Assembly (NCBI GenBank): GCA_964566075.1
Contig: CAZMHJ010000001.1
Span: forward strand, 9,890-72,796
Direction of reading: 5' to 3'
DNA: 62,907 nt
From: an uncultured Candidatus Saccharibacteria bacterium
GTDB taxonomy: Bacteria; Patescibacteriota; Saccharimonadia; Saccharimonadales; CAIOMD01
Of this stretch, positions 1-45,720 are shown one piece after another (within the stretch, counting starts at the first letter, position 1; each line of letters begins with the position of its first letter). The translations under genes were made by a program, and so were the position numbers. Under the pieces are notes generated by a model, which saw nothing but the letters and a program-made list of their open reading frames with translations, did no database searches and was not told the origin of the DNA.

Positions 1-2691
1 GCGGGCAATAACACCCTTGTTACCGTGACGTCCAGCTAACTTGTCACCAACTGCAACTTTACGCATTTGGGCAACAAACACCTGAATTTGCATAATCACA
101 CCTGCTTTAAGCTCATGGCCAGTGGCTCGGCTAAAGACTTTTACGCCAACAACCTTACCATGCTTACCATTGCTCATACGCTGAGATGTGTCGCGAACTT
201 CTTTCGCTTTTTCGCCAAAGATAGCGCGTAGTAGACGTTCTTCGCTACTAAGCTCTTGCTCACCTTTAGGGGTAATCTTTCCAACTAGGATATCGCCTGG
301 GTGTACTTCGGCACCAATACGGACAATACCGTCTTCGTCTAGATGACGAAGTGCTTCTTCTGAAACATTTGGAATATCACGAGTTACAACTTCTGGCCCA
401 AGTTTGGTTTCGCGAACTTCGGTCATGTAGTCAACAATATGTACGCTGGTAAAGACATCTTCTTTAACAAGTCGTTCGCTAATAACCACGGCGTCTTCAA
501 AGTTGTAGCCACCCCATGGCATAAATGCCACAAGCACGTCTTTACCAAGTGCGAGTTCGCCATTCTGGACACTCATACCTTCGATAAGAACATCACCAGC
601 CTTAACTGCGTCACCCGAGTTAACAACCACTTTTTGGTTGATGCTCGAACCTTCGTTGCTACGCTGGAAGTGCATTGGGTGGTAAGTCTTTTTAACCTTA
701 CCGTAGTCAACAACAACTTCATCACCACTTGCTTTGGTGACGGTACCGTTGTCTTCTGCAAGCACAATTTGGCCTGAGTTACGAGCCACGACAGATTCCA
801 TACCGGTACCAACGGTTGGTGCAGCTGGGTTAATCAGTGGAACTGCCTGACGTTGCTGGTTTGAGCCAATAAGGCTACGAAGCACGTAGTTCTTTTCAAT
901 ATAAGGAACAAGTGCGGCACTTGAACCGATAATCTGTTGTGATGCTGCGTCCACGTGAGTGACATCGTTTGCATCAACTTCTGCGGCAGCAAGACGAGCA
1001 CGAGCAGACACACGAGGGGCGATAAAGTAACCGTTGTTGTCAACTTCGGTACCTGCACCTGCAATAACTGCTTTTTCTTCTTCACTTGCGTCAAGATAGA
1101 TAACCTCTGTCGTAACCTTAGCCTTTACTGGCCAGGTAATCTTTGCTTTGACAGCTTCTAACTTTTTAACATCAGCGGCGCTAATAGTGGCGCCTTTTTT
1201 AACAATCGTTTTGCCTTTTTCATCTTCTAAATCTACAGCGGCAATGTGGCCAGCTGCATCTTTAGCAGGGACAGCGTTAATAACCTTACGATATGGTGTC
1301 TCCAAGAAACCATATTCGTTAATGCGCGCATAACTTGCCATATTAAGTACCAAACCAATGTTGGCACCTTCTGGCGTTTCAACCGCACAAATACGACCAT
1401 AGTGAGTCGCGTGTGCGTCACGTACTTCAAATCCTGCACGTTCGCGTGATAGACCACCAGGACCCATCGAACTAAGGCGTCGCTTGTGAGCGAGCTCAGA
1501 AAGTGGATTAATTTGGTCCATGAACTGGCTGAGCTGTGAACTTGCAAAGAATTCGCGGACAGCAGCAACAACTGGGCGAGCATTAATAAGCTGACCAGGG
1601 GTTACGGTTTCGATTTCGCTCATAGACATACGGTCTTTAGCGTTTCGTTCCATGCGAAGTAAACCGATACGGAACTGGCGTTGTACAAGTTCGCCAACCA
1701 ATTTCACACGGCGATTAGCCAAGCTATCAATATCGTCAGCTGGCTCTTGTGTGTTATTAAGTCGAATAACTTCAGCAACAATTGCAATTAAGTCTTCAAG
1801 ACGCATAACACGGTTTTCAACGGTGTTTGGTACGTCAAGGTCAAGACGCTTGTTGATTTTATAGCGCCCAACACGACTAAAGTCAAAACGCTTGAAGTTG
1901 TAGAACATGTTTTCTAACAAGCTACGAGCGTTATCAACGGTTGCAAGATCACCTGGGCGCAAACGACGATACACCTCAATCAAGGCTTCGTTGCTACCCT
2001 TAGCTGGGTCTTTTTCAAAAGTTGCGTCGATGTAGTTGAGTTTGCCAGTATCGACGTGCTTAACAGCGTCGCGGATAGCGGTTTCACTCATACCAAGTGC
2101 TTTAAATAAGGTAGTAACCGCAATCTTACGACGACGGTCAATCTTTACATATAATGCACCACTAGCAGCGGTTTCAAACTCTAACCATGCACCACGGTTT
2201 GGAATAACCTTAGCACCGTACAAACGGTGACCGCCATGATTTTCGCCTGTAAAGAACACACCCGGGCTACGAATAAGCTGGCTAACAACTACACGCTCTG
2301 CACCGTTGATAACAAAGGTGCCGCGGTTCGTCATCCATGGGTAGTCGCCTAGGTAGATTTCTTGTTCTTTTACTTCGCCTGTTACCTTGTTAGTCAATTC
2401 TACAACTGCCTTAAGTGGCGCGTCGTAGCTAACGTTATTTTCTCGGGCCTCAGATTCAGTAATCTTTGGTTCCTCAAAATGGTAACTCTTGAAACTTAAT
2501 GAAAGTTTGGTACCGGTATAGTCATCTATTGGACTTACTTCGGCTAAAAGCTCGCCTAAACCTTCGTCAACAAACCACTGGAAGCTCTTGTTCTGGTGGT
2601 CTACGAGGTTAGGCAGGCTGATATCATCACTTTTTGTGTAGTAGATGCGCTGCGATTGCGCAGTTGTACTCTTGGCTGCTGTCTTGGCCAT
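1..2691 (-). CDS. rpoB: DNA-directed RNA polymerase beta subunit, N-terminal 897 codons; the 3' end runs off the window start
   Basis: Minus-strand frame is open from ATG (2689-2691) to position 1. It is absent from the ORF track because no stop lies in the window. My translation starts MAKTAAKSTTAQSQRIYYTKSDDISLPNLVDHQNKSFQWF and contains GTFVINGAERVVVSQL, SQLSQFMDQINPLSELAHKRRLS and GLSRERAGFEVRD. Confidence 0.95.
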   Translation of the reverse strand, partial: MAKTAAKSTTAQSQRIYYTKSDDISLPNLVDHQNKSFQWFVDEGLGELLAEVSPIDDYTGTKLSLSFKSYHFEEPKITESEARENNVSYDAPLKAVVELTNKVTGEVKEQEIYLGDYPWMTNRGTFVINGAERVVVSQLIRSPGVFFTGENHGGHRLYGAKVIPNRGAWLEFETAASGALYVKIDRRRKIAVTTLFKALGMSETAIRDAVKHVDTGKLNYIDATFEKDPAKGSNEALIEVYRRLRPGDLATVDNARSLLENMFYNFKRFDFSRVGRYKINKRLDLDVPNTVENRVMRLEDLIAIVAEVIRLNNTQEPADDIDSLANRRVKLVGELVQRQFRIGLLRMERNAKDRMSMSEIETVTPGQLINARPVVAAVREFFASSQLSQFMDQINPLSELAHKRRLSSMGPGGLSRERAGFEVRDAHATHYGRICAVETPEGANIGLVLNMASYARINEYGFLETPYRKVINAVPAKDAAGHIAAVDLEDEKGKTIVKKGATISAADVKKLEAVKAKITWPVKAKVTTEVIYLDASEEEKAVIAGAGTEVDNNGYFIAPRVSARARLAAAEVDANDVTHVDAASQQIIGSSAALVPYIEKNYVLRSLIGSNQQRQAVPLINPAAPTVGTGMESVVARNSGQIVLAEDNGTVTKASGDEVVVDYGKVKKTYHPMHFQRSNEGSSINQKVVVNSGDAVKAGDVLIEGMSVQNGELALGKDVLVAFMPWGGYNFEDAVVISERLVKEDVFTSVHIVDYMTEVRETKLGPEVVTRDIPNVSEEALRHLDEDGIVRIGAEVHPGDILVGKITPKGEQELSSEERLLRAIFGEKAKEVRDTSQRMSNGKHGKVVGVKVFSRATGHELKAGVIMQIQVFVAQMRKVAVGDKLAGRHGNKGVIAR

Positions 2692-2882
2692 AAAAAAGCA
2701 GATCTCCTGTTATTGATTGATATGTTTTACCTTATTTTGCGCGCGAAGGTTAACTAAGCGGGTATTGTTTGAGCACTCGTGATTTGGAGACACGCGAGCA
2801 CTGGCCCGATTACACTACTTCTTAATACTAAGTCTATAGACTCTGTAAAACAATGTAAAGATTACTACTATGTAGTTTTTAC

Positions 2883-2938
2883 AACCTCTTTCGCCGTTTA
2901 CGGCTCATCAGTACGACTATTACATTCGTATAGAGATT
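2883..2938 (-). ncRNA. Type III hammerhead self-cleaving ribozyme, copy 1 (predicted cleavage between 2931 and 2930)
   Basis: Minus-strand RNA reads AAUCUCUA^UACGA-AUGUAAUAG-UCGUA-CUGAUGA-GCCG-UAAA-CGGC-GAAA-GAGGUU. The full catalytic core is present. Stems I and II are loop-closed and stem III is open. The stems covary with copy 2. Confidence 0.8.
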
Positions 2939-2939
2939 T

Positions 2940-2973
2940 CCGCCTCGAGGCCGAACTAAATGGCCTCGGGCGG
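2940..2973 (-). other. GC-rich 12-bp stem-loop (clamp A1) directly 5' of hammerhead copy 1
   Basis: Minus-strand CCGCCCGAGGCC-AUUUAGUUC-GGCCUCG(A)GGCGG. It is conserved with 4863..4896. No U-tract follows, so it is not a canonical intrinsic terminator. Confidence 0.7.
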
Positions 2974-2994
2974 AAGGTCTGATTGGTTTAATCG

Positions 2995-3162
2995 TTATTT
3001 GGGCCTGTATTTAATAGCAGCAGCAAGTGTCACTACCATTATCAAAAGCCCAAGTGCCGAAACGATGAATAGTGTCGGCACAATAGCTTGTGGCCAGAAC
3101 GAGTACTCCATACTGAGCACAAGTATGAAAGTTATGAAAGTGAGTACTTGAACAGCCTTCAT
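2995..3162 (-). CDS. Small membrane protein, 55 aa (hypothetical)
   Basis: Below the ORF-track size cutoff. ATG at 3160-3162 is preceded by GGGAGAAAT. Translation is MKAVQVLTFITFILVLSMEYSFWPQAIVPTLFIVSALGLLIMVVTLAAAIKYRPK, with two hydrophobic helices and TAA at 2995-2997. Confidence 0.55.
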   Translation of the reverse strand: MKAVQVLTFITFILVLSMEYSFWPQAIVPTLFIVSALGLLIMVVTLAAAIKYRPK

Positions 3163-3191
3163 ATTTCTCCCTTCACGTCAGGAGATGATGG

Positions 3192-3479
3192 TTACTTAAC
3201 CACTTGTTTTGACTCTCGCGTGAAAAGCAACATCGCGAGAGGCGATACAAGTGCACCAGCATAGAACCAATACGGTTCAACTACCGTACCAAGTCCAAAG
3301 AAGCACACTGTAAACACGATGAGCCCTAGCGCGATAAGGAGCCATTGCCATCCATTAAACACAAGAACGGGGTTACCCTGATAGTCGGGGTGGCCACGCT
3401 CAATTACGACAGCGAACAGCACGAACAAGCTCATGACTGCCCATGCAGTTGCGACTGCACACATCAGACCAGTCAACAT
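3192..3479 (-). CDS. Small membrane protein, about 95 aa (hypothetical)
   Basis: Track ORF 3192..3494 uses a TTG start. I prefer ATG at 3477-3479, preceded by GAGGGTGAGG. The protein has several hydrophobic helices. Confidence 0.6.
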   Translation of the reverse strand: MLTGLMCAVATAWAVMSLFVLFAVVIERGHPDYQGNPVLVFNGWQWLLIALGLIVFTVCFFGLGTVVEPYWFYAGALVSPLAMLLFTRESKQVVK

Positions 3480-3548
3480 GTACCTCACCCTCAACCTATA
3501 TCGACGATGAATACAGGTATTATATAGTAACTCAAAATTAAAACGACT

Positions 3549-3582
3549 CGCCCACTCGATATGTCTTTATCGAGGGGCGGGT
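3549..3582 (-). repeat. 34-nt palindromic repeat (hairpin B1), identical to 4341..4374
   Basis: cgcccactcgatatgtctttatcgaggggcgggt forms a stem of about 13 bp with one A/G mismatch. It lies downstream of CDS 3618..3932, and on the minus strand GUCGUUUUAAUUUU follows. Confidence 0.75.
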
Positions 3583-3617
3583 GTATGTTGGGTAAAGGAA
3601 CAGCTAGTGTCCATGCT

Positions 3618-3932
3618 TCACCCTGTCAGATTTTCACGCCTGTCGTCCGGCATGCGGCGAAGCCACTTGAGTTCCTGGAAGAATAGCCACGGCCCAACAA
3701 AGACCACAGCTATTCCAAGTATCTTGCCTTCGCTATCGAGAACCGAAGGCGCAAGCAAGAAGATGACCACCGCTACGAAGATGAACGTCACAGCAATCAA
3801 AGCAATCTGCTTTCGCTCAGGTGCGCTTAGAAGATCACGAGGCAACATCACGCCGTAATCAAGTGCAAAGGCGAGAGAGATTAGCCCATAGAGCACCGCG
3901 AAACTTGCCAGTGCACTCAGCACAAACTGCAT
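3618..3932 (-). CDS. Small membrane protein, 104 aa (hypothetical)
   Basis: This is the C-terminal part of track ORF 3618..4166. ATG at 3930-3932 is preceded by GGAGGACTC. The sequence MQFVLSALASFAVLYGLISLAFAL... is hydrophobic. The upstream part of the track ORF overlaps 3941..4216 and looks non-coding. Confidence 0.6.
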   Translation of the reverse strand: MQFVLSALASFAVLYGLISLAFALDYGVMLPRDLLSAPERKQIALIAVTFIFVAVVIFLLAPSVLDSEGKILGIAVVFVGPWLFFQELKWLRRMPDDRRENLTG

Positions 3933-3940
3933 GAGTCCTC

Positions 3941-4216
3941 CTAGTAGTCGTCTTCGTTGGGCAGATGGGTACGTTGTTCCTGCTTTATCTCTTCGATGAC
4001 TGGGATGTAGATAACCGGTAGTAACATGACCAGCGTGACGAGCCCTGCAAGTACCGCTCTTGGCGTCATGCGCAGCTCTGGCCACAGAATGATGAACATG
4101 GCCACGAGGCAGATTGACATGCTGGTGCAAGTCTTCGAGAATCGGTCGTACCACATGCCTCGCCACATGCGACGATGGACTTCAACAAACATAATCCGAA
4201 AAGGTACGGTTTTCAC
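3941..4216 (-). CDS. Small membrane protein, 91 aa (hypothetical)
   Basis: Track ORF with a GTG start preceded by GGAGGAG. It has two hydrophobic helices and an acidic tail. Its stop lies 8 nt before the next ATG. Confidence 0.6.
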   Translation of the reverse strand: MKTVPFRIMFVEVHRRMWRGMWYDRFSKTCTSMSICLVAMFIILWPELRMTPRAVLAGLVTLVMLLPVIYIPVIEEIKQEQRTHLPNEDDY

Positions 4217-4259
4217 AACTCCTCCGTAGGTGTAGGTAGGTGTTCGAAACTAGTTGCAT

Positions 4260-4288
4260 ATTTTACGATTTTTAAGCATTTTTGTCAA
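4260..4288 (-). promoter_or_regulatory. Sigma-70-like promoter for 3941..4216 / 3618..3932
   Basis: Minus strand reads TTGACA (4288..4283), a 17-nt spacer, then TAAAAT (4265..4260). Confidence 0.5.
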
Positions 4289-4301
4289 TTTTTAAGCAAT
4301 T

Positions 4302-4323
4302 GAAAAACGGCCCTTTTGGCCGT
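4302..4323 (-). terminator. Intrinsic terminator after CDS 4393..4737
   Basis: Minus strand reads ACGGCC-AAAAG-GGCCGU followed by UUUUU. Confidence 0.6.
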
Positions 4324-4340
4324 ATATAAAGTAAGTTCCC

Positions 4341-4374
4341 CGCCCACTCGATATGTCTTTATCGAGGGGCGGGT
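4341..4374 (-). repeat. 34-nt palindromic repeat (hairpin B2), identical to 3549..3582
   Basis: Exact 34-nt identity with B1. The stem extends to 4337. It lies 19 nt downstream of the stop of CDS 4393..4737. Confidence 0.75.
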
Positions 4375-4392
4375 TCAGCTTGTTCGTAGGCG

Positions 4393-4737
4393 TTAGCCCA
4401 TGTCATTCATGATGTCATCTACGATGCGCTTTGCCATCGCATTGTACTTTGCGTCTTCCTTGCGGAAGCGCCTGTACCAGAACACGGCGTCATAGATGAA
4501 CCATACGGTGACTAGAGCCACCACTACGGTGAAGATGGTGAAGAACGTCACGCGATCGGCAGGCATATCCCTGCCAAAACTCGTTGCCGATGTCATGACC
4601 ATACTGCCAATCAATCCTGCAGAGGCGAAAAATCCAGGGCCAGGCCTACCGTACTTCGTCTTACCCTTGAAGTAGCTCGCCACTCCGACAGCAATGAACA
4701 GCAATGCGAGAACCAGTGCCGGAATTCCTGCGCTCAT
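4393..4737 (-). CDS. Small membrane protein, 114 aa (hypothetical)
   Basis: Track ORF with three hydrophobic segments and a charged C-terminus. Confidence 0.65.
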   Translation of the reverse strand: MSAGIPALVLALLFIAVGVASYFKGKTKYGRPGPGFFASAGLIGSMVMTSATSFGRDMPADRVTFFTIFTVVVALVTVWFIYDAVFWYRRFRKEDAKYNAMAKRIVDDIMNDMG

Positions 4738-4779
4738 CAGATTTCCTATCTGTTAAAGGTACACTTACAAGCTAAATAT

Positions 4780-4807
4780 ATTATATCATCTTTTTTTGAT
4801 TATTCAA
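4780..4807 (-). promoter_or_regulatory. Sigma-70-like promoter with extended -10 for CDS 4393..4737
   Basis: Minus strand reads TTGAAT (4807..4802), a 16-nt spacer, then TGATATAAT (-10 at 4785..4780). The -35 overlaps the 3' strand of hammerhead stem III. Confidence 0.5.
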
Positions 4808-4861
4808 TCTCTTTCGTCGTTTACGACTCATCAGAACGACTACAAAATTCGTTGAGAGATT
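4806..4861 (-). ncRNA. Type III hammerhead self-cleaving ribozyme, copy 2 (predicted cleavage between 4854 and 4853)
   Basis: Minus-strand RNA reads AAUCUCUC^AACGA-AUUUUGUAG-UCGUU-CUGAUGA-GUCG-UAAA-CGAC-GAAA-GAGAUU. The core is identical to copy 1. There are compensatory pair changes in stems I and II. Confidence 0.8.
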
Positions 4862-4862
4862 T

Positions 4863-4896
4863 CCGCCACGAGGCCGATAATTATGGCCTCGGGCGG
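4863..4896 (-). other. GC-rich 12-bp stem-loop (clamp A2) directly 5' of hammerhead copy 2
   Basis: Minus-strand CCGCCCGAGGCC-AUAAUUAUC-GGCCUCG(U)GGCGG. Same stem as A1, with a different loop and a different bulged base. Confidence 0.7.
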
Positions 4897-4932
4897 GAAC
4901 AATTTCGGAGTTCGTGAAGACCTAGTGACAGA

Positions 4933-5253
4933 TTAAGCCGAGACCTGATCTGTCTGCTCGCTTTTGAGCACAGTACGGATGCGATCAACATTGAGGCCAA
5001 GCCCGTAGACCACATAACCGCACGATATGCTGAGTGGTATCCAGATCGCTAAGCCATAGCTTCCCTGCACGTGCATGAATATTGCAAACACAAGCACCGC
5101 ACTTTCCAGGACCAGCAGCCCGATACTACCCGCGAGGTAGAAGGATGCCCTGATGATGCGCGTCCGTTCAAGCACGGCTCGAGCGAAATTGATGCATGCA
5201 ATTGCACTCAGCATCAGACAGATGAAGAAAACCAAAACGATTGGTAGATACAT
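4933..5253 (-). CDS. Small membrane protein, about 106 aa (hypothetical)
   Basis: Track ORF 4933..5256 starts at GTG. The adjacent ATG at 5251-5253 has GGAG 8 nt upstream. The protein has three or four hydrophobic helices. Confidence 0.65.
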   Translation of the reverse strand: MYLPIVLVFFICLMLSAIACINFARAVLERTRIIRASFYLAGSIGLLVLESAVLVFAIFMHVQGSYGLAIWIPLSISCGYVVYGLGLNVDRIRTVLKSEQTDQVSA

Positions 5254-5304
5254 CACGATTACTCCAAAGTCCGTGGGCGTAGAGTCTCTACACCCAATAA
5301 ATAC

Positions 5305-5334
5305 ATTATATCATATAGCTTATGCTTTTGTCAA
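5305..5334 (-). promoter_or_regulatory. Sigma-70-like promoter with extended -10 for CDS 4933..5253
   Basis: Minus strand reads TTGACA (5334..5329), an 18-nt spacer ending in TGA, then TATAAT (5310..5305). Confidence 0.5.
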
Positions 5335-5354
5335 TAGTTTACCCCTGTTAATAA

Positions 5355-5382
5355 TATTAAAACAGCCCTATTCTGGGCTGTT
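5355..5382 (-). terminator. Probable terminator after clpP
   Basis: AACAGCCC-loop-GGGCUGUU stem about 27 nt after the clpP stop, followed by a U/A-rich tail. Confidence 0.45.
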
Positions 5383-5408
5383 TTTCAAGTACTACTAAGT
5401 GTCTAAAA

Positions 5409-5996
5409 TTAGCGTTTTTCGATAATTCCGTCTACGAGGCCGTATTTTTTGGCTTCTTCGGCAGTCATCCAGTAATCGCGCTCTACGTCTTTTTCGATTG
5501 TTGCAAGCTTTTGGCCCGTATTTTTGGCTAGAATTTCATTCAATAACTTCTTAAGGCGTAGCCCTTCTTTAAGGTCAATTTCCATATCGGTCACCTTACC
5601 ACGAGTGCCGCTGCTTGGCTGGTGAATCATGGCGGTGGCACTCGGCAACATAAAGCGCTTGCCTTTTGTGCCGCTACTCAATAGGAAGGCACCCATGCTG
5701 GCTTGTACACCGATACCAATGGTTTGTACGTCGCATTTTACAAACTGCATCGTGTCGTAAATGGCCATACCATCATAGACGCTACCACCTGGGCTGTTAA
5801 TGTAAAAGACAATATCTTTTTTAGGGTCTTCGGCTTCTAAAAAGAGCATCTGAGCAACTACAAGATTAGCAGTGTGCTCGTTCACATCCTCGCCCAAAAA
5901 GATAATGCGCTCTTTAAGCAGACGGCTGTAAATATCATAGGCACGCTCCATGCGGCCATCGTTTTCTATCACTGTTGGAATAAGCATGTTTTTCAT
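5409..5996 (-). CDS. clpP: ATP-dependent Clp protease proteolytic subunit
   Basis: IIFLGEDVN..., [14 protein letters not shown] and MIHQPS are ClpP blocks. The start is moved to ATG 5994-5996 (MKNMLIPTV...) because the track start at 6035 lies inside the CIRCE operator. Confidence 0.93.
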
Positions 5997-11451: not shown

Positions 11452-11485
11452 AAAAATACCGCCTCAGAATTGAGGCGGTATTTTA
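11452..11485. terminator. Bidirectional intrinsic terminator between convergent genes
   Basis: AAAAATACCGCCTCA-gaat-TGAGGCGGTATTTT. Confidence 0.7.
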
Positions 11486-13290: not shown

Positions 13291-13321
13291 CAAAACAAAA
13301 CAAAAACCCCAAAAAGGGGTT
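13291..13321 (-). terminator. Intrinsic terminator between tRNA-Leu and tyrS
   Basis: Minus strand reads AACCCC-UUUUU-GGGGUU followed by UUUGUUUUGUUUUGUU, ending about 20 nt before the tyrS ATG. Confidence 0.65.
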
Positions 13322-13328
13322 CTTGTTT

Positions 13329-13413
13329 TGGTACCGCGGAGAGGACTTGAACCTCCACGTCTTGCGACACTAGCTCCTAAGGCTAGCGTGTCTACCAATT
13401 CCACCACCGCGGC
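13329..13413 (-). tRNA. tRNA-Leu (anticodon UAG), class II with long variable arm, CCA encoded
   Basis: GCCGCGG-UG-GUGGAAUUGGUAGACAC-G-CUAGC-CUUAGGA-GCUAG-UGUCGCAAGACGU-GGAGG-UUCAAGU-CCUCU-CCGCGGU-ACCA. The cloverleaf was folded by hand. Discriminator is A73. Confidence 0.9.
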
Positions 13414-17832: not shown

Positions 17833-20526
17833 ATGAGTAAGGATAACAACCGCCTTTCGGGTTTTAAGAGCCGAGCAAAACGAATGACAAAAAAGTCAGA
17901 TACTAATAAAGGGGTAAAGGTTAATCGAAGTGTGGGCGACCGCATAAAGGCCCACAAAGATGACCGTGCGCGAAAGCGTGCCGAGTATTTGTCGACCTTG
18001 CCAAAAAATCCTATAAAACGCTTTTTTTACCGTTTACAACCAAAGCGTTTATATAAATATTGGTTTAGCCGCGAGGGTGGCATTATGGCCCTCAAGGTAC
18101 TTGGTATTGGGTTTGCAGTTATCATGGTGCTTACCTTAGCTACTTTTGCTTATTTCCGTAAAGATTTACCAAAGAACATTACTGACCTTAAAACTTGTTC
18201 ACAGGGCGCAAGCACAACATACTACGACCGAACGGGCCAAACGCTGTTATGGGCAAGCTCGGGTGATGTAGAATGTTACCCCGTTAAGTTCGAACAAATC
18301 TCACCCTACTTACGAAATGCGGTAGTTGCTTCAGAAGACAAGGACTTTTATAAGCATGGTGGCTTTAGCGCACAGGGGTTATTACGTGCAGGCCTTAATA
18401 ATATTAAAGGTGGTAGCACCCAGGGTGGTTCTACCATTACACAGCAGTTTGTTAAAAACTCACTTTTGACTCAAGATCAAAAAATCTCTCGAAAAATTAA
18501 AGAACTTATTTTATCGATTGAGCTCGAAAGAAGTTATTCTAAAGACGAGATTCTTAACGCGTATCTTAACGAAATATCGTTTGGCTCAACCTATAATGGA
18601 GCCGAAGCGGCTGCTCGTGGTTACTTTAATAAGTCAGCCAAAGACCTAACTCTAGACGAAGCCGCTCTGCTTACGGCGATTATCCCAGCACCTACCTATT
18701 ATTCACCATACGGAAGACATACCGATGAGCTCGTACAACGCCAGCACTATAAGTTAGACCAAATGGTAGACCAAGGCTATATCAAAAAAAGTGACGCTGA
18801 TGCCGCAAAAAAAGTAGATACACTCGCAAAACTTTCGACCAGCCGCAATAAGTATAAAAATATTATTGCTCCTTACTTTGTACTTGAAGTACAAGAACAA
18901 CTAGAAGCCAAATATGGTGTAAACAATGTACAGCGCCAAGGCTATAAAGTCATCACTACACTTGATTTACGCCTTCAAAAAATTGCTGAGGATGTAGTTG
19001 CCAATACAATGCCAAAGGTTATTCGCAATAACGCAGATAACATGGCAGTAGTTGCAGAAGATGCGCAGACCGGGCAGGTTATCGCCCTAGTCGGTGGTCG
19101 CGGATTTGATTATCCGGGTTATGGCCAAAAGAACATGGCTACGACTCCTCGCAGCCCGGGATCAACAATGAAACCATATGACTACTCTTCATTAATGACT
19201 CAAAATAAGAGCTGGGGCGCAGGCAGTACATTATTTGATCTTAAGACCGATTTTGGTGGTTACTCGCCAGATGATTATGACCTTCGTCAGCCTGGTGCAA
19301 TGAGTATGCGTCAAGCGCTTGGAGGCTCGCGAAATATACCTGCAATTAAGGCTACTTATATAGCAGGTGTGCAAAATACTATAGATTTGGCAAAAAAGAT
19401 GGGTGTCGTCAGCGGTACATCTTGTGAACCAAATTGTGGTTTATCAGCTGCCATCGGTGATGGTAGCGAAATACGGCTGGACGAGCATGTTAACGGTTAT
19501 GCAACACTTGCCAGAGGCGGTAAATATAAGCCAAAAACGTATATGCTTAAAGTTTCTGACGCACGCGATACAGTTTTATACGAATGGAAAGATACTGCCG
19601 GCGAACAGGTGTTAGACCCACAGATTGCTTACATTGTTGCTGATATGATGAGTGACTCTAAAGTAAGCTACTTCGGTAATAATTATCGACTTAACAACGG
19701 TTGGAAATCTGCGCTTAAAACCGGTACTACCAATAACAAAGATAATGGATGGCTTATGGGCTATACTAATAAGCTCGTATTCGGATTATGGATGGGGCGT
19801 CAAAATGACAATAAAGCACAGTACAACTTTACAGATACCATATTAGGGCCAGCATGGAATAGTTTCATGACACAATCAAACAGTGTGCTGGGATATAACA
19901 AAGGTTCTGGTTGGACAAAACCTGCAGGTATTAAAACTGTATGTATCAATCAGACGACAGGTTACGCAACTACAAGTGGCGGTAATTGTGACATCTTCCC
20001 AAGTTGGTATCAACCACAATACCCTGATAGTAGTAAATCAGCTACCATTGATTCAGTCAGTAAAAAACTAGCTACCGAATGTACTCCTGAGCTTGCTAAG
20101 CAGGCTATTACTGGCGGTGGTATTCGCTCAGAATTGCCAACAAGCGATGCTATGTACAATAACTGGATTAAACCAATCCAAGCACGTTATGGAGGTTCAG
20201 GTGGTGGCGCCATACCTACTGATAAAGACGATGTTCACACTTGTGATCCTGCCGATAAACCGTCAATTAGCAACTTAACCATCACTCCCGCTGGAGCTGG
20301 CAGTTATAAGATAAGTGTTACTGTATCGCAAGGTAAAAGTCCGTTAACAACAGTTAATTTCAAGGCAAACGGTACCATTATCGACGGTGGTTCAGTCACC
20401 ATAACTGCTGGCGGTACGTATGATGTAACCTACACACCTACCGGCAGCGATCCAGTACAAATTACTGCTCAGGTTATTGATAGCGTCTTATATGATTCCA
20501 CAACAGACGCAAAGCAAATACCTTAA
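17833..20526 (+). CDS. Class A penicillin-binding protein (GT51 transglycosylase plus transpeptidase) with Ig-like C-terminal extension
   Basis: EDKDFYKHGG, GGSTITQQ, SPGSTMKP (SxxK), SRN and KTGTT. Has an N-terminal TM segment. Confidence 0.9.
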   Translation: MSKDNNRLSGFKSRAKRMTKKSDTNKGVKVNRSVGDRIKAHKDDRARKRAEYLSTLPKNPIKRFFYRLQPKRLYKYWFSREGGIMALKVLGIGFAVIMVLTLATFAYFRKDLPKNITDLKTCSQGASTTYYDRTGQTLLWASSGDVECYPVKFEQISPYLRNAVVASEDKDFYKHGGFSAQGLLRAGLNNIKGGSTQGGSTITQQFVKNSLLTQDQKISRKIKELILSIELERSYSKDEILNAYLNEISFGSTYNGAEAAARGYFNKSAKDLTLDEAALLTAIIPAPTYYSPYGRHTDELVQRQHYKLDQMVDQGYIKKSDADAAKKVDTLAKLSTSRNKYKNIIAPYFVLEVQEQLEAKYGVNNVQRQGYKVITTLDLRLQKIAEDVVANTMPKVIRNNADNMAVVAEDAQTGQVIALVGGRGFDYPGYGQKNMATTPRSPGSTMKPYDYSSLMTQNKSWGAGSTLFDLKTDFGGYSPDDYDLRQPGAMSMRQALGGSRNIPAIKATYIAGVQNTIDLAKKMGVVSGTSCEPNCGLSAAIGDGSEIRLDEHVNGYATLARGGKYKPKTYMLKVSDARDTVLYEWKDTAGEQVLDPQIAYIVADMMSDSKVSYFGNNYRLNNGWKSALKTGTTNNKDNGWLMGYTNKLVFGLWMGRQNDNKAQYNFTDTILGPAWNSFMTQSNSVLGYNKGSGWTKPAGIKTVCINQTTGYATTSGGNCDIFPSWYQPQYPDSSKSATIDSVSKKLATECTPELAKQAITGGGIRSELPTSDAMYNNWIKPIQARYGGSGGGAIPTDKDDVHTCDPADKPSISNLTITPAGAGSYKISVTVSQGKSPLTTVNFKANGTIIDGGSVTITAGGTYDVTYTPTGSDPVQITAQVIDSVLYDSTTDAKQIP

Positions 20527-20543
20527 GATTGTGTCCGCACTTC

Positions 20544-20573
20544 AAAAAACCGCTCTACAGTGAGCGGTTTTTT
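20544..20573. terminator. Bidirectional intrinsic terminator between convergent genes
   Basis: AAAAAACCGCTC-tacagt-GAGCGGTTTTTT. Confidence 0.7.
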
Positions 20574-20598
20574 GTATGTAATGGGTAGTATTGTCTGT

Positions 20599-22905: not shown

Positions 22906-23382
22906 TTATTTTGGTTCGTAGTATATCCTCATCAAATACCCATAGGTACCAAACTCGTCGATTCTGCCATGAAGTATCACATCATAAACATTCAAACTTT
23001 GAAGGGCTTCAACTTCCCTTGCGGCATAATCAAGAAAAGAGGATATACCAATATTAGGGTCTTCATCCATATCCAGCTCAAATAAGTGAACCTTCTGATT
23101 ACTTCTGATACGACTATTGTAAAGCCTATTCTCATCTGTTGGTGAGTTGCTTTTAAGAAGCAGGGCATCGTCTTGAATTTTCTTATCAGATTTTCTTAGT
23201 TTATACACCTCTAATTCAAGTGTTGGCCATGTACTATCATCCACTGCATTTGAAAGATATAAACTTACAGAACGAGCATATCCAACAGATTTAACATCAT
23301 GGGCAAGACTTTTTAGCATATCAGGTAGTGATACTTTGCGATTGGTGTTCCCTGCTTGAAAATAATGTGTTTTCATATTCAT
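22906..23382 (-). CDS. Candidate cognate immunity protein of the RHS toxin, 158 aa (hypothetical)
   Basis: ATG at 23380-23382 overlaps the RHS TAA stop (TAATG). The protein starts MNMKTHYFQAGN... It has no TM segment and no known motif. The track's longer start at 23451 lies inside the RHS gene. Confidence 0.55.
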   Translation of the reverse strand: MNMKTHYFQAGNTNRKVSLPDMLKSLAHDVKSVGYARSVSLYLSNAVDDSTWPTLELEVYKLRKSDKKIQDDALLLKSNSPTDENRLYNSRIRSNQKVHLFELDMDEDPNIGISSFLDYAAREVEALQSLNVYDVILHGRIDEFGTYGYLMRIYYEPK

Positions 23383-26300
23383 TACAATACTACTGCACAC
23401 ACCGGTGCCGCAACTAAACAACCAGGACTCAACACTTTTGCACCCCACCATATGGCTATTAGAACACTAGCCGCTGCAGCCGTACCACCCGCAGCTTTTT
23501 TTGCCTGCGGGCTTACGCTCGGTAGACCTCCCGATGGAAGTGATGGTGGCCCTTTTCTATTATTCTTGTCTTTCGACTCCCTTGATTGTCTTTCACCCCG
23601 AATTTTTTCATTATACTTTTGTTTTGCTTTTGCGCTGTTCCAGTCCTTGGAGTTGTATTTATTCTTACCCTCATTCCACGCTTTAAGCTCCTTGAAGTTT
23701 AGCTTTTTCTCCTGTGCCTGCTGACGACCTCTCTGTGCCCTTTGACCAGTAAGATCATAATCAGTTATGGGATTATTCACATAGGCATATGCATTGTCAG
23801 TACCGCCTTCTATTGGATCAACTTGTGCAAATCGCCCTATGCTTGCTAGATATACACGTGCTCCCATTTGTACCACAGGGATGCTGAAGTTTGATTCAGA
23901 TAGTTTCTGGTGTTGCCCAATGTACGAGTAGCTTGCGCCCCTATCGGCATTAGTCGGTGCTAATTGGCCATCAATCAATTCACCAAACGGCCCTGTAACA
24001 TTTGTGCTCAGTAATGAGCCATCTGCTTTCGTCATCGCAAAGTTATCGCCATGTATATTTGGCAAGCTAAACGTCATTTGCGCACTTGGGTCACTCGCGT
24101 TTGGTCGAATTGTAACAAGCACGTTACCAGGCAGTGTCACATACTTTTCGACTACGTTCCATGCATTGTCTCGTATGAAGTCTGGTGTGTCACCACTACC
24201 CGTAAAGCCATAGAAACTATCGCCAGCTGCACTCCATGTAAAGTTTGCAATACTGTTGATATATCGCCCCATGATGCGACCTTGTACATCTCGGGTATAA
24301 TAGGTTGCGATTCCATTACCAGTATCAGAAGTGTACTGAACCACACCCGTGTTTCTATCTGAGGCATCATATGCAAATCGTACTGGCAAGTTTGATGTTC
24401 CGATTGCTGTTGTATTACCGTGGTCATCATAGTCAACAACCGCAAGTGATGGGTCTGAGCCTGCTAGTAATCTGTCGGCGCTATCGTAACAATAGTTCGT
24501 TGTTTTACCATTTATTGTTTGAGTAGTGCGGTTACCATTTTTGCCAGCATTTAAGTTTGCACTCGTCTGTGCGCATTGTGCGGCAGTAGCAGTACCAAAC
24601 CCATAGCTATAACTATTAGTACCGATTGTGGCGGCTGTTAATCTCCCCCCACCGTCATATGTATAGCTCTTTGCTAAACCATTTTCGGTACCACTTATTA
24701 CATCGCCACTTACAGTTCTATTAACTTGGTCACTGATGATTGTTGAGCCATCGCCAAGGGTATATGATAATCCGTTCATACGACCAAGGTTGTCTCGTGT
24801 AATAGAGCCTAGCTTCTGCTGATTAGCAGTTGGGTACGCAACGCTTGCAATTCGGCTAAACGTATCATACGTTACCGTAGCCAATACAACTGAGTTGAGT
24901 GATTGAGATACTAGGCGATCGTAATCATCGTAAGTGTATGTTTCTGTACCAAGAGGACTAGCACGACTTACAAGATGACCAGCATTGTCATACGCACTTG
25001 TAGTTACGTTGCTATGTGTGTCTTTGTACGATATAACCCTACCGAGCAAATCTGTCTCAACTATAATAGATCCGTTTTGGTCTGTCGTACTAGTAACTAG
25101 TGGGTTACCGTTAACGGCATAGTTGCTACTTATCGTGCGGCCTGCTCGACCGTTTATATCAGGTATGACCGTCGAGATAACTCGCCCACGCGCATCGTAA
25201 TTTGTGCAAGTCCATGGGTCATTATTAAACTTTGTCGCCACTACCCTGCCTGTTGAATCATATATCGTTTCGCTAGTTCGCGGAGTTTGAGGGCCAACCC
25301 CATCTGGGTCAGGTTCTATCTTGCCCTTTGCGAAGCCAGCTTGGCTAACAGGTGACGAGTTGGCATCACATTCATTCTTTCGAACCTCAGTAGCGCCGTA
25401 GTACAGATAGGTATAGGTATTACCGCCAGGCATTGTCTTACTTGTTTGTCGCATTAAACTACCCGCTTGATAAGGCTCGTATGTGTAGCTTGTTGTTAGG
25501 TTAAGTCCGCCAACGTCCTCAGTTACTGATTTAGCCTGTGCAAGCTCGGGTTGTGCGCCATAATCTGTCTTTGTAGTACTATCACCTGTTTGGCTATCAA
25601 ATACCTTACTGCTAGTTGTAAGTGCGTAGACTGGCTTTACGAAAGTTGGCCTGCTTGTTCCAAGTCCGGCGTTTGTATCGGTAATTCCAGGTCCAGACAA
25701 CCATAGTTCTAGTGCTCCTTGGTTATATCCCGTATGGCCATACGCTAGCTCAATTCTATAGGGTTTACCAGCCTCGGCAGTAAATGTGGCAGTCTGCCGC
25801 TTTTGGGTTACTCCCTCTGAACGGGTTCCAAGATTATTAATTAAAACGTTATCGTTAACCGTTAATCTTGCGCCATCGTCGTTCCATATATTGTATGTAT
25901 ATGTTCCTGATTGTGGGAACGTAACCGTTCCAGTAGCTCTAAAACCGTAGCCGTAGTATTTCGCATCGGGATTTTTTACAATGTTCGTTGCCCATATTGC
26001 AGAGTTATCATTCCCAAAAATTACGAGATTACCGTCGTTCTGCATAACTAAACTTCCAGAAGGACGGCCAGATGTTGCAGAAGCCCAGGTTGCCACGTTA
26101 TTACCGTTATATATTACTAAGTTTCCATCACCCTGAAGTACAAGCCGGCAATTTGCGCCACTTGTATTTGATGCCCAAACTACACCACTTGGACCGTAGA
26201 TAACCAGATTACCATCAGTCTGCATTATGAGCCTAAACTGGCCATCTTCTGACCATATCGACTGATTTGTACCAAGTGTGCCGCCGACCAATAATGAGGC

Positions 26301-29300
26301 TGCGTTTGCTGTTTGATTATCGGGAGTGAATGGTACGGAGTCTAGTCTAAAATCTCTACCAAGCCAGCTCCTATCCTTGTTAGGTGTTATGCCTGTCGTG
26401 TGATATTTTGGTGCCCCTACAAGGCTTCCACCATCTTTTGTAACCACATAATTAAACCAGCTGACAGCTAGGCCATTAATGCCCTCGTCATAGTTTGTTT
26501 GGGTATGTGGAACTTGGTTAGTGTATGTCGCAAGCGGTTTACGGTCTGTACCAAACCATACAGATGGCGCCGGCCCATAGTTATCAATTGGTAAATCGTT
26601 TGCGTCGTAAATGGTTGTCGACTTTAACCCAGTTGCATCAGTCGATGATAACAATAAGTCTTTTACGGCGTCCCACTCTTGTTGTGTTGCGTTACCGTCT
26701 TTACCATAGTTTTTAACCGTTCTGTACAAGCTGTCGTATTCGACTCGTTGGCTATAACCTTTAGGCTCAACCTCTCCAACCTCATTAGTTTGGGTCGCAT
26801 TATTGAGGTAGTTATAGTTATGTTTTGCCCTAAAGCCACCTTCGGTTGCGCTTGGTAACGTAATTGAATTTGCACGGCCAACGACATCATAGTCTATTTG
26901 GCTTGTAACCGTACTGTTATCTTGTCTAATTCCAGCTGCTACCGCATCATATGCGAGTGATGACTGTTGTTGCACAAGCCGACCGAGTGCATCATATCCG
27001 AGTGTCGTTGTCACGCCACCTGGGCTTACAATACGAGCGAGTTGACCATTTTTATAGTACAAATAGCTTAGTTGTTGGTCTGTTGTTTTAAAAGCACAAA
27101 GCATATTAAAAGGTGGCTGGCTGTCATAGCCATTTGGTACCGAACCACAATTATTATCACCAGAATAGTACAATGTACCCATCCTTGTTTGGTCAGCGCC
27201 ATCCTTGATAGTTGTTAAGCGCGCTGGGGTACCATCGTAACCATATATGAGCGCCGTTGGCTTTCGGTCATCATTTGGCGTACTCGTACTCGTTAGTTGC
27301 CCCGCACTGTTAAAGGTATAGGTACGCCCATCACTATCTATTAACGTGTACGTGCTATCCGCATTCTTTGTTAAGAAGCCGTACTCATTAACAGGAGGCG
27401 TGTATGCACTACCATTCCATTTATATTCGTGCTGATCACCTTCGGCATCATATAAAATGACGCTTTGCGTTTGAATGTTTGCATAATCATACGCTAAATC
27501 ACCATCAGCATCTACACTCATTTGCCAGCCGTTTGGTAATGGATTAATTTTGGTGCTAAGCCATGCACTCGGAATAATTTGCTCGGCCACCGCACCCTTC
27601 ACGTAAAGCCCAAATGAAGCCGCTCCAAGATTCTCATAAAATTCTGCGGTTATAGGAATTGACTGCCCAGACGTTAGATTAACAGCCGGGCCGTATCCAA
27701 TACCTGAGCCAGTATCTTTCCAGTCATCCTGGTATGCAGAAGTGCCACCGTTTAGATATATTCTTGAACCATCATCGCTACTGGTGCCAAAGTAATAGGT
27801 TCCCGTGACCGGAGCGGTGAAGTAGCCAGTATACCGGGCTGCGAAATTATTAATTGGACCATATGGCATCGGTGAGCCCTCGCCCCAATTAAAGTTCATA
27901 TTTGTTTCACGCCTGGTTAAGAATGAGCTCATAGGGTCAGTTGGGAACGTTGGCGAGACTCCAGCTGAGGCACTAAAGTATCGGCCCATCAATCCATTAT
28001 TCTGCGATACGGTTTTGGGTTCGGTTCGTAGCCAATTTGTTTGAATCTGCTGCTCTACACCATCTATTCTTACGGCAACATAAAGATATCCATTCCCTGT
28101 TGCCTCGATATAGTCCATTTGCATCGGTACGATTTGACCCTCACTAAAGTAGCGAGAACCCATAGTCCAATTACCGTTACTACAACAACCTGCGCTAACA
28201 GCCGGTGTTGATTCGTTATTTAGATATAGTGCATAGTAATCATCTGCCGTAAATCCAAACTGATAATTACCGGACTTTGGTGCAATAAAGTAGCCCTTGA
28301 GTCGCATCGAAAAATTATCGTTATTAACGACTCCAGCCGCAGGCGTGCCCGTGTTCCATGGGAAGTTTAGGTTAGTCTCAATGCGACGAATCGCAGAGCT
28401 ACCCGACCACGAAGTGTTATTGTAATATTCCGCTGTTAAACCGGGTTTGCTGCGATACGGCGAATTGTAGTCAAAGCTTAACCCTATGTTGCCACCTAAT
28501 GCAGACATTGTGTGTGTGCCTGCACTTGTCACAACGTTACCAGTGGCTAAATTGACATCAACAGGCCCTCCGTCGTCAAAGCTTGCTGCGCTATCATTAC
28601 CCAGTCGTGCATCGTACTTAAATGATCGAGTCCATACGTTGATCGGTGACCCCCATCTATCACAGGTGCCACCAACATATTGGCCACACGAATCATGAGA
28701 ATAAACATGCCAGTAGTATGTTACACCGTCTTGTAGAACACCTTCTGGTACTGTCCATTGGGTAGAGCTTATAAGACCTGAGTTTATAACCGTGCCTGTC
28801 TCACCATCTTGACCAGTCGACACCCTAAAGTAGTACTGTATCGGGTCACCATCAGGGTCAGTACTTGGATTAACCTGCAACATTGGTTGATCAGTAACGA
28901 CAACTTGTTTATCAGCTGGTGATAGTGGCGTAGGTACTGAAGGAGTGCTATTGAAGGTATATTCAATCCAGCTATTATCGGCGTCAAAACCTTTCCAGGT
29001 TAAATATGCTCGCTCCTCACCATTTAGGATATACGTCGGGCCAGTATCACCAATATCTGCTTGCCTTTGTAGCAAAGCGGTCATACTAATATTGCCGTTA
29101 GTCCCAAACCATGCGCTGTGGCGCGGGCTTCCCCAATCAATACAGTTATAGCCCCAACAAGCGGCACGCGAAACTTCAGTGTATAAACCTTCTGTTGTGC
29201 CGATGCCAGACCTCTTATTTATAATCAGATTTGCACTTAGAATTTGCTTGCCAGGAAGTTCTGGCATCGAAACCCAAAAGACGGTTCGCCAGCCTTTCCA

Positions 29301-35860: not shown

Positions 35861-36090
35861 AACCGCCTCCTTTAAATTGCAAAAATACAGCCAGCCTGTT
35901 CTGTCCGATTTTTCAGACAATGAGCTAGTTGTATTTTTATTTCTCCGATACCCACACAGAGGAGGTTTCGCCACTTGCTCCTGCTATACCTGGCGACCAA
36001 GTATTTGGTATAGCTATCAACGCGCTCTGTTATTTCTAAATATATTCCTTTTTTTGCAATATGCAACCATAAGCTTAATAAAAGTAAGTA

Positions 36091-45673: not shown

Positions 45674-45702
45674 AAAAAACCTCCGCGGTGTGCGGAGGTT
45701 TT
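45674..45702 (-). terminator. Intrinsic terminator after rplS
   Basis: AAAACCUCCGC-acacc-GCGGAGGUUUUUUG on the minus strand. Confidence 0.7.
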
Positions 45703-45720
45703 ATAGCTATGCAAATATGT

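What the first reader, a model, noticed from the sequence alone, without database searches (positions are those of the whole stretch)
2883..2975. Complete type III hammerhead ribozyme about 190 nt upstream of rpoB
On the minus strand, 2938->2883 reads AAUCUCUA^UACGA-AUGUAAUAG-UCGUA-CUGAUGA-GCCG-UAAA-CGGC-GAAA-GAGGUU. Every invariant hammerhead position is present in the correct order: C3-A9 is CUGAUGA, G12-A14 is GAA, A15.1:U16.1 pair, G10.1:C11.1 pair, and the cleavage triplet is CUA. Stem I (5 bp) and stem II (4 bp) are loop-closed. Stem III (7 bp, one G:U) is open, which is type III topology.

The element lies in a 303-nt gap that no ORF explains, between a 55-aa ORF and rpoB. A 12-bp GC hairpin (2940..2973) lies immediately 5' of the ribozyme and has no U-tract. 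Cleavage between 2931 and 2930 would leave the upstream mRNA ending 9 nt after that hairpin. It would leave the rpoB-side RNA with a 5'-OH. This looks like a ribozyme-based 3'-end-forming or insulator device placed in front of an essential gene.
Basis: partly seen in the sequence, partly recalled or inferred. Interest (0 to 1): 0.85.

Follow-up and report, generated by a model that had tools for sequence, protein, structure and literature searches.

The report
Hairpin-plus-hammerhead ribozyme ending gene cassettes
The reported sequence is a genuine self-cleaving hammerhead RNA, one of two copies in this Saccharibacteria genome piece; each follows a strong hairpin at the end of a small, strain-variable membrane-protein gene, where a transcription terminator would normally sit, so it most likely cuts off that gene's transcript rather than regulating rpoB.

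Summary
Minus strand 2938..2883 is a complete type III hammerhead, and it is not a chance match. A second copy lies at 4861..4806. Seven more were found in related Saccharibacteria metagenome contigs. Across the nine copies the catalytic core is invariant except at N7 and H17, the two positions hammerheads tolerate. Eight of the 16 stem pairs show compensatory changes.

Rfam misses both copies (25.4 and 42.6 bits, against a threshold of 48.5).

The link to rpoB is incidental. rpoB has its own promoter (2859..2831) downstream of the ribozyme, and that promoter is conserved in relatives that lack any hammerhead. The ribozyme is the last element of a block of cassettes inserted between clpP and rpoB. 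This is a strain-variable hotspot: the gap is about 200-3200 nt in 80 species.

Each cassette consists of a promoter, one or two unrelated small membrane ORFs, a GC hairpin, and then either a hammerhead or an ordinary U-tract terminator.

Best reading (inferred, not shown): the ribozyme forms the transcript's 3' end and insulates the next gene, and the hairpin protects the new end.

This matches the known pattern of bacterial hammerheads flanking small non-conserved ORFs. I class it as a new member of a known kind. It is moderately interesting because the layout suggests a testable function.

The parts
2883..2938 (-). Hammerhead A (type III). Cleavage is predicted between A2931 and U2930. Core CUGAUGA at 2911-2905, GAA at 2892-2890. 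Stem I 5 bp, stem II 4 bp with a UAAA loop, open stem III 7 bp.
   Evidence: 80 bits with the family model; RF00008, 25.4 bits; the MFE fold equals the hammerhead fold.
2939..2974 (-). GC hairpin A: 13 bp, one bulged A, 9-nt loop, directly abutting stem III, no U-tract.
   Evidence: (-27.3 kcal/mol, z = -6.0).
4806..4861 (-). Hammerhead B, a paralogous copy. Cleavage is predicted between C4854 and A4853. It carries compensatory changes relative to A in stem I (U-A to A-U) and stem II (C-G to U-A).
   Evidence: 82.3 bits; RF00008, 42.6 bits, full-length alignment.
4863..4896 (-). GC hairpin B. Same stem sequence as hairpin A, with a different loop and a different bulged base.
   Evidence: (-27.7 kcal/mol).
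2995..3162 (-). 55-aa two-helix membrane ORF, the last gene before module A. Its stop codon lies 20 nt before hairpin A.
   Evidence: (no Pfam family).
4933..5256 (-). 107-aa membrane ORF, the gene before module B. Its stop codon lies 36 nt before hairpin B.
2831..2859 (-). rpoB promoter (TTTACA-17-TAGACT), downstream of hammerhead A and conserved in relatives without any hammerhead.
4780..4807 (-). Promoter-like site for the next cassette (TTGAAT-16-TGaTATAAT). Its -35 box overlaps the last bases of hammerhead B.
5305..5334 (-). Consensus promoter of the first cassette (TTGACA-18-TATAAT, 12 of 12 matches), just after the clpP terminator.
5359..5384 (-). Canonical intrinsic terminator after clpP (hairpin followed by UUUU). 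It shows that this organism uses ordinary terminators.
4307..4374 (-). 3' region of the 114-aa cassette: a related GC hairpin (4374-4341, an exact 34-nt repeat of 3582-3549) followed by a canonical U-tract terminator (4323-4307). It occupies the same slot as the hammerhead.
   Evidence: the same layout is seen in L226.
1..2691 (-). rpoB, N-terminal 897 codons. The gene runs off the window.

Best explanation
The unit is a roughly 97-nt module made of a stable GC hairpin followed directly by a canonical type III hammerhead ribozyme. It sits at the 3' end of small membrane-protein expression cassettes. These cassettes were inserted between clpP and rpoB in one clade of Candidatus Saccharibacteria.

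Proposed mechanism:
1. RNA polymerase transcribes the cassette ORF, then the hairpin, then the ribozyme.
2. The hammerhead folds and cuts itself after A2931 (copy A) or C4854 (copy B).
3. The cassette mRNA is released. It ends in the hairpin plus about 9 nt carrying a 2',3'-cyclic phosphate. The hairpin would block 3' exonucleases.
4. Any read-through RNA heading into the next promoter and gene (rpoB for copy A) is detached and left with a 5'-OH end.

The module therefore acts as a transcription-unit boundary, forming a 3' end and insulating the next gene, in the slot where sibling cassettes carry an ordinary U-tract terminator.

Shown here: the motif, its paralogue and relatives, covariation, the fold and the genomic layout. 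Inferred: that it cleaves, and what the cleavage is for.
For: The ribozyme is real.
- There are nine copies, and all nine rows are distinct in the alignment. All invariant core positions are kept.
- Variation occurs only at N7 (U or C) and H17 (A or C). Stems are 94% paired, and 8 of 16 pairs carry compensatory changes. None of 500 shuffles reached the observed values, and register-shifted controls collapse.
- No comparable hit appeared in 400 simulated windows.
- The MFE fold of the module is the hairpin plus the hammerhead, for both copies.

The hairpin is part of the module.
- Eight of nine copies have a hairpin of -26 to -35 kcal/mol. It ends 0-6 nt before stem III.
- The stems differ in sequence between loci (e.g. 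GAGGCC/GGCCUC against GAGACC/GGUCUC) but remain paired.

The module occupies the terminator slot.
- All nine copies follow a same-strand ORF, 4-41 nt after its stop codon.
- A promoter-like site follows within about 10-35 nt in five of them.
- In the window, the promoter and terminator sites and the sequence give this map: P1 - 107-aa ORF - hairpin + hammerhead B; P2 - 114-aa ORF - hairpin + U-tract terminator; P3 - four small ORFs - hairpin + hammerhead A; then the rpoB promoter.
- In L226 the same hairpin family is followed by U-tract terminators instead of a hammerhead.
- Other genes in the window use classical terminators.
- In L204 the module lies between convergent genes, so it can only serve the upstream gene.

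Literature: clustered bacterial hammerheads flank small, non-conserved ORFs, and mRNA processing has been suggested as their role (PMC3088659, PMC6155905, PMC6765202).
Against: - No RNA data exist. Cleavage in vitro or in vivo is untested.
- Tertiary loop-loop contacts, which are needed for fast cleavage at cellular Mg2+ levels, cannot be assessed. Loop I is not conserved.
- The module scores below the Rfam threshold.
- The hairpin alone could act as a stabiliser or pause site, leaving the ribozyme with some other role.
- The fate of the polymerase after cleavage is unknown.
- The sample is small and comes from closely related genomes. Several stem pairs vary in only one sequence (L204).
Confidence: 0.6

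Rival explanations
1. The ribozyme is a 5' processing or regulatory device for rpoB. It would be part of the rpoB transcript, and cleavage would set the 5' end (5'-OH) and so the stability or translation of this essential mRNA.
For: Copy A lies 191 nt upstream of the rpoB ATG on the same strand. An orthologous locus, L202, also has a copy upstream of rpoB.
Against: - A conserved rpoB promoter and leader lie downstream of the ribozyme. They are present in relatives without any hammerhead (L210, L211, L212, L215).
- None of 80 species-level rpoB loci has the ribozyme.
- Other copies precede unrelated genes or face a convergent gene.
- The ribozyme's 3' end coincides with the boundary of the inserted block.
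Confidence: 0.1
2. The hammerheads are the ends of an RNA-mobilised or circular-RNA element (retrozyme- or viroid-like). Two same-strand ribozymes would excise the segment between them (1923 nt here, 667 nt in L202) with ends that RtcB could ligate. This would explain cassette turnover.
For: - Two direct-repeat modules flank blocks of ORFs.
- Cassette ORFs are non-homologous between strains whose ClpP is 97% identical, while the module is kept.
- Several short contigs end at or within a few bases of the module, as expected for a repeat.
Against: - Internal promoters and a U-tract terminator (4323-4307) lie between the two copies, so a transcript spanning both hammerheads is unlikely.
- The segment is protein-coding.
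- No reverse transcriptase, integrase or phage family was found in the cassettes.
- There is no match in viral contigs, phages or plasmids.
- Perreault et al. could not detect circular products for bacterial clusters (PMC3088659).
Confidence: 0.1
3. The motif is a decaying relic or a chance look-alike with no catalytic role. The conserved, functional element would be the GC hairpin alone.
For: Scores are below the Rfam threshold. The related hairpin occurs without a hammerhead at 3549-3582 and 4341-4374, and in L226.
Against: - The core is invariant across all nine copies, and compensatory stem changes indicate purifying selection on the hammerhead fold.
- The variation seen is restricted to positions the ribozyme tolerates.
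- The chance expectation is essentially zero.
Confidence: 0.04

Closest known systems
Clustered bacterial and prophage hammerhead ribozymes flanking small non-conserved ORFs (Perreault et al. 2011, PMC3088659; de la Pena et al. 2017, PMC6155905)
   Same: Canonical hammerhead core. Several same-strand copies lie close together and bracket short genes of unknown function that vary between genomes. The proposed role is processing of multi-gene transcripts.
   Different: - The host is a Saccharibacteria (CPR) chromosome, at a fixed clpP-rpoB hotspot with no phage or integrase signal.
- The topology is type III, whereas the papers read here describe type II as the typical prokaryotic form (PMC6155905).
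- Every copy at the clpP-rpoB locus is fused to a strong upstream GC hairpin and sits in a terminator slot followed by a promoter.
- I found no paper that mentions both hammerheads and Saccharibacteria or CPR.
Rfam RF00008, Hammerhead_3 (viroid, satellite RNA and plant type III hammerheads)
   Same: Same topology and the same core. Copy B aligns over the full length of the model.
   Different: - Scores are 25.4 and 42.6 bits, below the 48.5 threshold.
- The cleavage triplet is CUA or CUC, whereas the model consensus is GUC.
- Loop II is a short UAAA.
- The sequence is DNA-encoded in a bacterial chromosome, not part of a circular RNA replicon.
Rho-independent (intrinsic) terminators and 3' stabilising hairpins
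   Same: A GC-rich hairpin shortly after a stop codon and before the next promoter. Sibling cassettes have the same hairpin family followed by a true U-tract terminator.
   Different: There is no U-tract after the hairpin. The 3' end would be made by RNA self-cleavage, not by polymerase release.
RiboJ-type synthetic ribozyme insulators, and ribozymes placed in 3' UTRs (twister reporters, PMC6765202; rodent Clec2 hammerhead, PMC6155905)
   Same: A hammerhead combined with an adjacent hairpin uncouples neighbouring transcript parts. The comparison to RiboJ rests on my own knowledge.
   Different: This is a natural element. The hairpin is 5' of the ribozyme and would protect the upstream product, rather than 3' of it to expose a ribosome-binding site.

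Membership tests
Hammerhead ribozyme | Conserved core C3-U4-G5-A6-N7-G8-A9 | tested here: met
   CUGAUGA in 7 copies and CUGACGA in 2. Only N7 varies.
Hammerhead ribozyme | G12-A13-A14, an A15.1:U16.1 pair, and a non-G nucleotide at the cleavage site (H17) | tested here: met
   GAA-A is invariant and U16.1 is invariant. Position 17 is A in 4 copies and C in 5, never G.
Hammerhead ribozyme | Three helices around the core, supported by covariation, with a G10.1:C11.1 pair | tested here: met
   94% of cells are paired and 8 of 16 pairs carry compensatory changes. None of 500 shuffles reached this, and shifted registers give 28-49% pairing. G10.1:C11.1 is invariant.
Hammerhead ribozyme | Type III topology: stems I and II closed by loops, stem III open | tested here: met
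Hammerhead ribozyme | Tertiary contact between loops I and II that gives fast cleavage at physiological Mg2+ | not testable with these tools
   Loop II is UAAA in 8 copies and UGAAA in 1. Loop I is variable and A/U-rich. No Watson-Crick pseudoknot is evident.
Hammerhead ribozyme | Site-specific Mg2+-dependent self-cleavage giving 2',3'-cyclic phosphate and 5'-OH ends | not testable with these tools
   This needs in vitro transcription or end-specific RNA-seq.
Rfam RF00008 (operational criterion, not a defining property of the ribozyme) | Score at or above the curated gathering threshold of 48.5 bits | tested here: not met
   25.4 bits (A) and 42.6 bits (B). In the printed alignments, stem III of copy A and the CUA/CUC triplet match the model consensus (GUC) poorly. 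A model built from this family itself scores 57-82 bits.
Intrinsic (Rho-independent) terminator | GC hairpin immediately followed by a U-tract | tested here: not met
   The hairpins at 2974-2939 and 4896-4863 are followed by AAAUCUCU, not a U-tract. They are not listed by the terminator scan, which does list 5384-5359 and 4323-4307.
Retrozyme-like / circular-RNA hammerhead element | Two direct-repeat type III hammerheads bounding a short non-coding segment that is transcribed as one unit | tested here: not met
   Direct-repeat ribozymes are present. However, the segment encodes four to five ORFs and contains promoters and a terminator. Primer-binding and polypurine tracts were not examined.
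REP-type repeated extragenic palindromes | The same GC palindrome dispersed through many intergenic regions of the genome | tested here: not met
   In the hairpin scan and by reading 3150-5420, this hairpin family appears only between clpP and rpoB. The other intergenic hairpins listed are A-tract/U-tract terminators.

The most novel reading that the evidence does not exclude
In this Saccharibacteria clade a self-cleaving ribozyme is a natural, interchangeable substitute for an intrinsic terminator. The hairpin-hammerhead module and the hairpin-plus-U-tract module would be alternative 3' ends of a standard expression chassis made of a conserved promoter, a swappable small membrane-protein ORF and a conserved 3' module. 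Whole ORFs would be exchanged between strains of an epibiotic bacterium at a hotspot next to rpoB. If so, this would give bacterial hammerheads a defined physiological job: making a cyclic-phosphate-capped, hairpin-protected mRNA 3' end and insulating an essential gene from read-through.
Probability: 0.3. Interest if true: 0.7.

Novelty: new member of a known kind. Interest (0 to 1): 0.5.

Why it matters
Reviews describe the biological role of bacterial hammerheads as an open question (PMC6155905, PMC6765202).

This family has an unusually clean and repeated layout: stop codon, GC hairpin, ribozyme, next promoter. Sibling cassettes carry an ordinary terminator in the same place. That layout turns the idea of ribozyme-made 3' ends and insulation into a simple experiment.

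It also shows that standard Rfam thresholds miss real ribozymes in candidate-phyla-radiation genomes.

Finally, it marks a strain-variable cassette hotspot encoding small membrane proteins in bacteria that live attached to other cells.

Tried and rejected
- Rfam at gathering thresholds over the whole window found only a tRNA.
- A strict hammerhead descriptor and the family covariance model found nothing in 80 species-representative Saccharibacteria rpoB loci.
- The model also found nothing in close relatives L210-L215 and L225-L229.
- A generic core pattern in viral contigs returned 120 loci. None passed the type III descriptor.
- The family-specific pattern returned no viral hits.
- BLAST of the module against phage and plasmid collections gave no match.
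- Pfam and PHROGs searches of ten module-adjacent ORFs gave nothing above threshold.
- I looked for other ribozyme classes in the clpP-rpoB gaps of 17 other species and found none at Rfam thresholds.
- An exact look-up of the TTG-start ClpP was not on record.
- Integron attC was considered and rejected by reading the sequence. There is no GTTRRRY / RYYYAAC core, and no integrase is encoded between clpP and rpoB.
- REP elements were rejected because the hairpin is confined to this locus.
- A weak model hit at window 18482-18537 (+) (17.3 bits, E = 0.42) was treated as chance.

Full report
**What is in the sequence.** Read on the minus strand, 2938..2883 is AAUCUCU-A|UACGA-AUGUAAUAG-UCGUA-CUGAUGA-GCCG-UAAA-CGGC-GAA-AGAGGUU. 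Every invariant hammerhead position is present and in order. Stems I (5 bp) and II (4 bp) are closed by loops. Stem III (7 bp, one G:U) is open. This is type III topology, with cleavage predicted after A2931.

- a 303-nt gap with no ORF;
- about 190 nt to the rpoB ATG at 2691;
- a GC hairpin at 2974-2939 with no U-tract;
- 9 nt between the hairpin and the cut.

**Is it more than chance?** Yes.
- A hammerhead descriptor run on 400 simulated windows of the same composition gave 0.015 loose hits per window. It gave no hit with stems of at least 5/4/5 pairs.
- The real window has two hits with stems of 5/4/7 pairs.
- The second copy lies at 4861..4806 on the same strand. It differs from the first by compensatory changes in stem I (U-A to A-U) and stem II (C-G to U-A), and by G:U to A:U in stem III.
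- The repeat covers about 97 nt, hairpin plus ribozyme: 2877-2973 and 4800-4896, 82% identical, 1923 nt apart.
- The minimum-free-energy fold of each 100-nt module is exactly the hairpin plus the three-way hammerhead junction.

Rfam's type III model recognises both copies but below its gathering score: 25.4 and 42.6 bits against 48.5. Routine annotation would therefore miss them.

**Relatives.** The window comes from a Candidatus Saccharibacteria genome. The RpoB N-terminus is up to 84% identical to Saccharibacteria MAGs.
- A core-plus-loop pattern found four metagenome contigs carrying five more copies.
- Walking out from close ClpP homologues found further copies in L216/L218/L219, L220 and L223. 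It also recovered the window's own strain in L205, L207 and L208.
- In total there are nine aligned copies, and no two are identical.
- The core is invariant except N7 (U or C). The cleavage nucleotide is A or C, never G. These are the two positions hammerheads are known to tolerate.
- Of 16 stem pairs, 8 show compensatory double changes, and 94% of cells are paired. None of 500 column shuffles reached the observed values. Sliding the partner by 1-3 columns drops pairing to 28-49%.
- Caveats: the sequences are closely related, much of the stem I variation comes from one sequence (L204), and the alignment was fitted to the model.

**Genomic setting.** The order tig-clpP-rpoB is conserved across Saccharibacteria, but the clpP-to-rpoB distance ranges from about 200 to 3200 nt. 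In the window this interval is about 2.7 kb and holds six short ORFs, mostly predicted membrane proteins. None has a Pfam or PHROG family.

On the minus strand, the promoter and terminator scans plus direct reading of the sequence give this map:
1. clpP, followed by a canonical terminator (5384-5359).
2. P1 (5334-5305, a perfect consensus), the 107-aa ORF, then hairpin + hammerhead B.
3. P2 (4807-4780, overlapping the ribozyme's last bases), the 114-aa ORF, a related hairpin, then a canonical terminator (4323-4307).
4. P3 (4288-4260) and four small ORFs, with a related hairpin between the second and third, then hairpin + hammerhead A.
5. The rpoB promoter (2859-2831), the leader, and rpoB.

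The two hammerheads therefore sit where terminators would be expected. In L226 the same hairpin family is followed by U-tract terminators and no ribozyme. Elsewhere in the window, genes end in classical A-tract/hairpin/U-tract terminators.

All nine copies follow a same-strand ORF 4-41 nt after its stop codon. Eight of nine have a hairpin of -26 to -35 kcal/mol that ends 0-6 nt before stem III, and its stem sequence differs between loci. Five are followed within about 10-35 nt by a promoter-like site. In L204 the module lies between convergent genes.

**Relation to rpoB.** I aligned the sequence between hammerhead A and rpoB with relatives that lack any hammerhead (L210, L211, L212, L215).
- Homology starts exactly at the ribozyme's 3' end (GTTGTAAAAACTAC...).
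- It includes a conserved -35 box (TTKACA), a 17-nt spacer, an NANACT -10 box, and a conserved leader of about 130 nt.
- In L211 this sequence follows clpP directly.
- So the cassette block, ending with hammerhead A, is an insertion between clpP and the ancestral rpoB promoter. Primary rpoB transcripts would not contain the ribozyme.
- None of the 80 species-representative loci has the ribozyme, and several close relatives lack it as well.

The rpoB connection is thus positional. At most, the ribozyme shields rpoB from read-through.

**Cassette turnover.** The ORFs that precede the module are not detectably homologous to one another. This holds even between the window and L216, whose ClpP is 97% identical. 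The only exception is a pair of paralogues in L202. The flanking promoter region and the hairpin-ribozyme module are conserved.

Several short contigs end at or within a few bases of the module: L218, L219, L221 and L222. This is what repeats do to assemblies.

**Most likely mechanism.** I infer co-transcriptional self-cleavage. It would release the cassette mRNA with a 3' end made of a GC hairpin plus about 9 nt and a 2',3'-cyclic phosphate. The hairpin would act as an exonuclease barrier. Any read-through RNA would be detached with a 5'-OH end. The module would then be a ribozyme-based transcription-unit boundary.

The motif, its conservation and the layout are shown here. Cleavage and its consequences are inferred. 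My confidence that it is a functional hammerhead is about 0.9. My confidence in the boundary role is about 0.6.

**Rivals.**
- *A device acting on rpoB mRNA.* Contradicted by the downstream conserved promoter and by the module's occurrence at other genes.
- *A circular-RNA or retrozyme-like element.* Attractive because two direct ribozymes flank gene blocks that turn over between strains. It is weakened by internal promoters and a terminator, the coding content, the absence of a reverse transcriptase, integrase or phage signal, and the absence of matches in viral, phage or plasmid collections.
- *A relic or chance motif.* Contradicted by the pattern of conservation.

**Comparison with what is known.** Bacterial hammerheads are well documented. 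Two papers note that they often occur in clusters flanking small, non-conserved ORFs, frequently near prophage genes (PMC3088659, PMC6155905). Reviews state that their role is still open (PMC6155905, PMC6765202).

This locus fits that pattern and meets every sequence-level criterion of the class. I file it as a new member of a known kind. What it adds:
- a host lineage (Saccharibacteria/CPR) for which I found no report;
- a non-phage chromosomal hotspot;
- an obligatory 5' hairpin;
- direct interchange with intrinsic terminators, which points to a testable function.

Noticed in passing
window 2692-2826 (-), with L202, L210, L211, L212 and L215: The rpoB 5' leader is conserved across Saccharibacteria, with invariant blocks AAGAAGTAGTG, GTGCTCG and CTTCGCGCGCAAAA. 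RNAalifold predicts 18 pairs, 4 of them with compensatory changes. No Rfam family matches. It may be an undescribed cis-regulatory leader of rpoB.
   Followed up: partly
window 3549-3582 and 4341-4374: An exact 34-nt GC hairpin repeat (ACCCGCCCCTCGATAAAGACATATCGAGTGGGCG on the minus strand) follows two other cassette ORFs. It is related at its 5' end to the hammerhead-associated hairpins. One copy is followed by a canonical terminator.
   Followed up: partly
window 2692-5408; L001-L080, L201-L229: The clpP-rpoB interval is a strain-variable hotspot of 200-3200 nt. It is filled with non-homologous small membrane-protein ORFs, even between strains with 97% identical ClpP. The first cassette promoter (TTGACAAAAGCA..TATAAT) is conserved between loci.
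   Followed up: partly
L218, L219 (3' ends); L221, L222 (3' ends): Short-read contigs stop inside the hammerhead or 5 nt before it. This suggests the 31-32-nt core shared between copies is multi-copy in those samples and breaks assemblies.
   Followed up: partly
window 11453-11484, 13296-13330, 20541-20576, 45674-45704: Classical bidirectional terminators (A-tract, GC stem, T-tract) lie between ordinary genes. This shows that the organism normally uses intrinsic termination.
   Followed up: no
window 13332-13413 (-): A tRNA gene with a long variable arm is the only Rfam hit at gathering threshold (56.2 bits).
   Followed up: no
window 23382-30479, 31343-35974, 51878-55564 (-): Three very large ORFs of 2365, 1543 and 1228 aa. 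They were not examined.
   Followed up: no
L204 781-838 (-): This is the most divergent family member: a 7-bp A/U-rich stem I, stem II GUCC/GGAC, and only a weak upstream hairpin. It lies between convergent genes on a 1.4-kb contig of unknown taxon. The family may therefore extend beyond the clpP-rpoB locus.
   Followed up: partly
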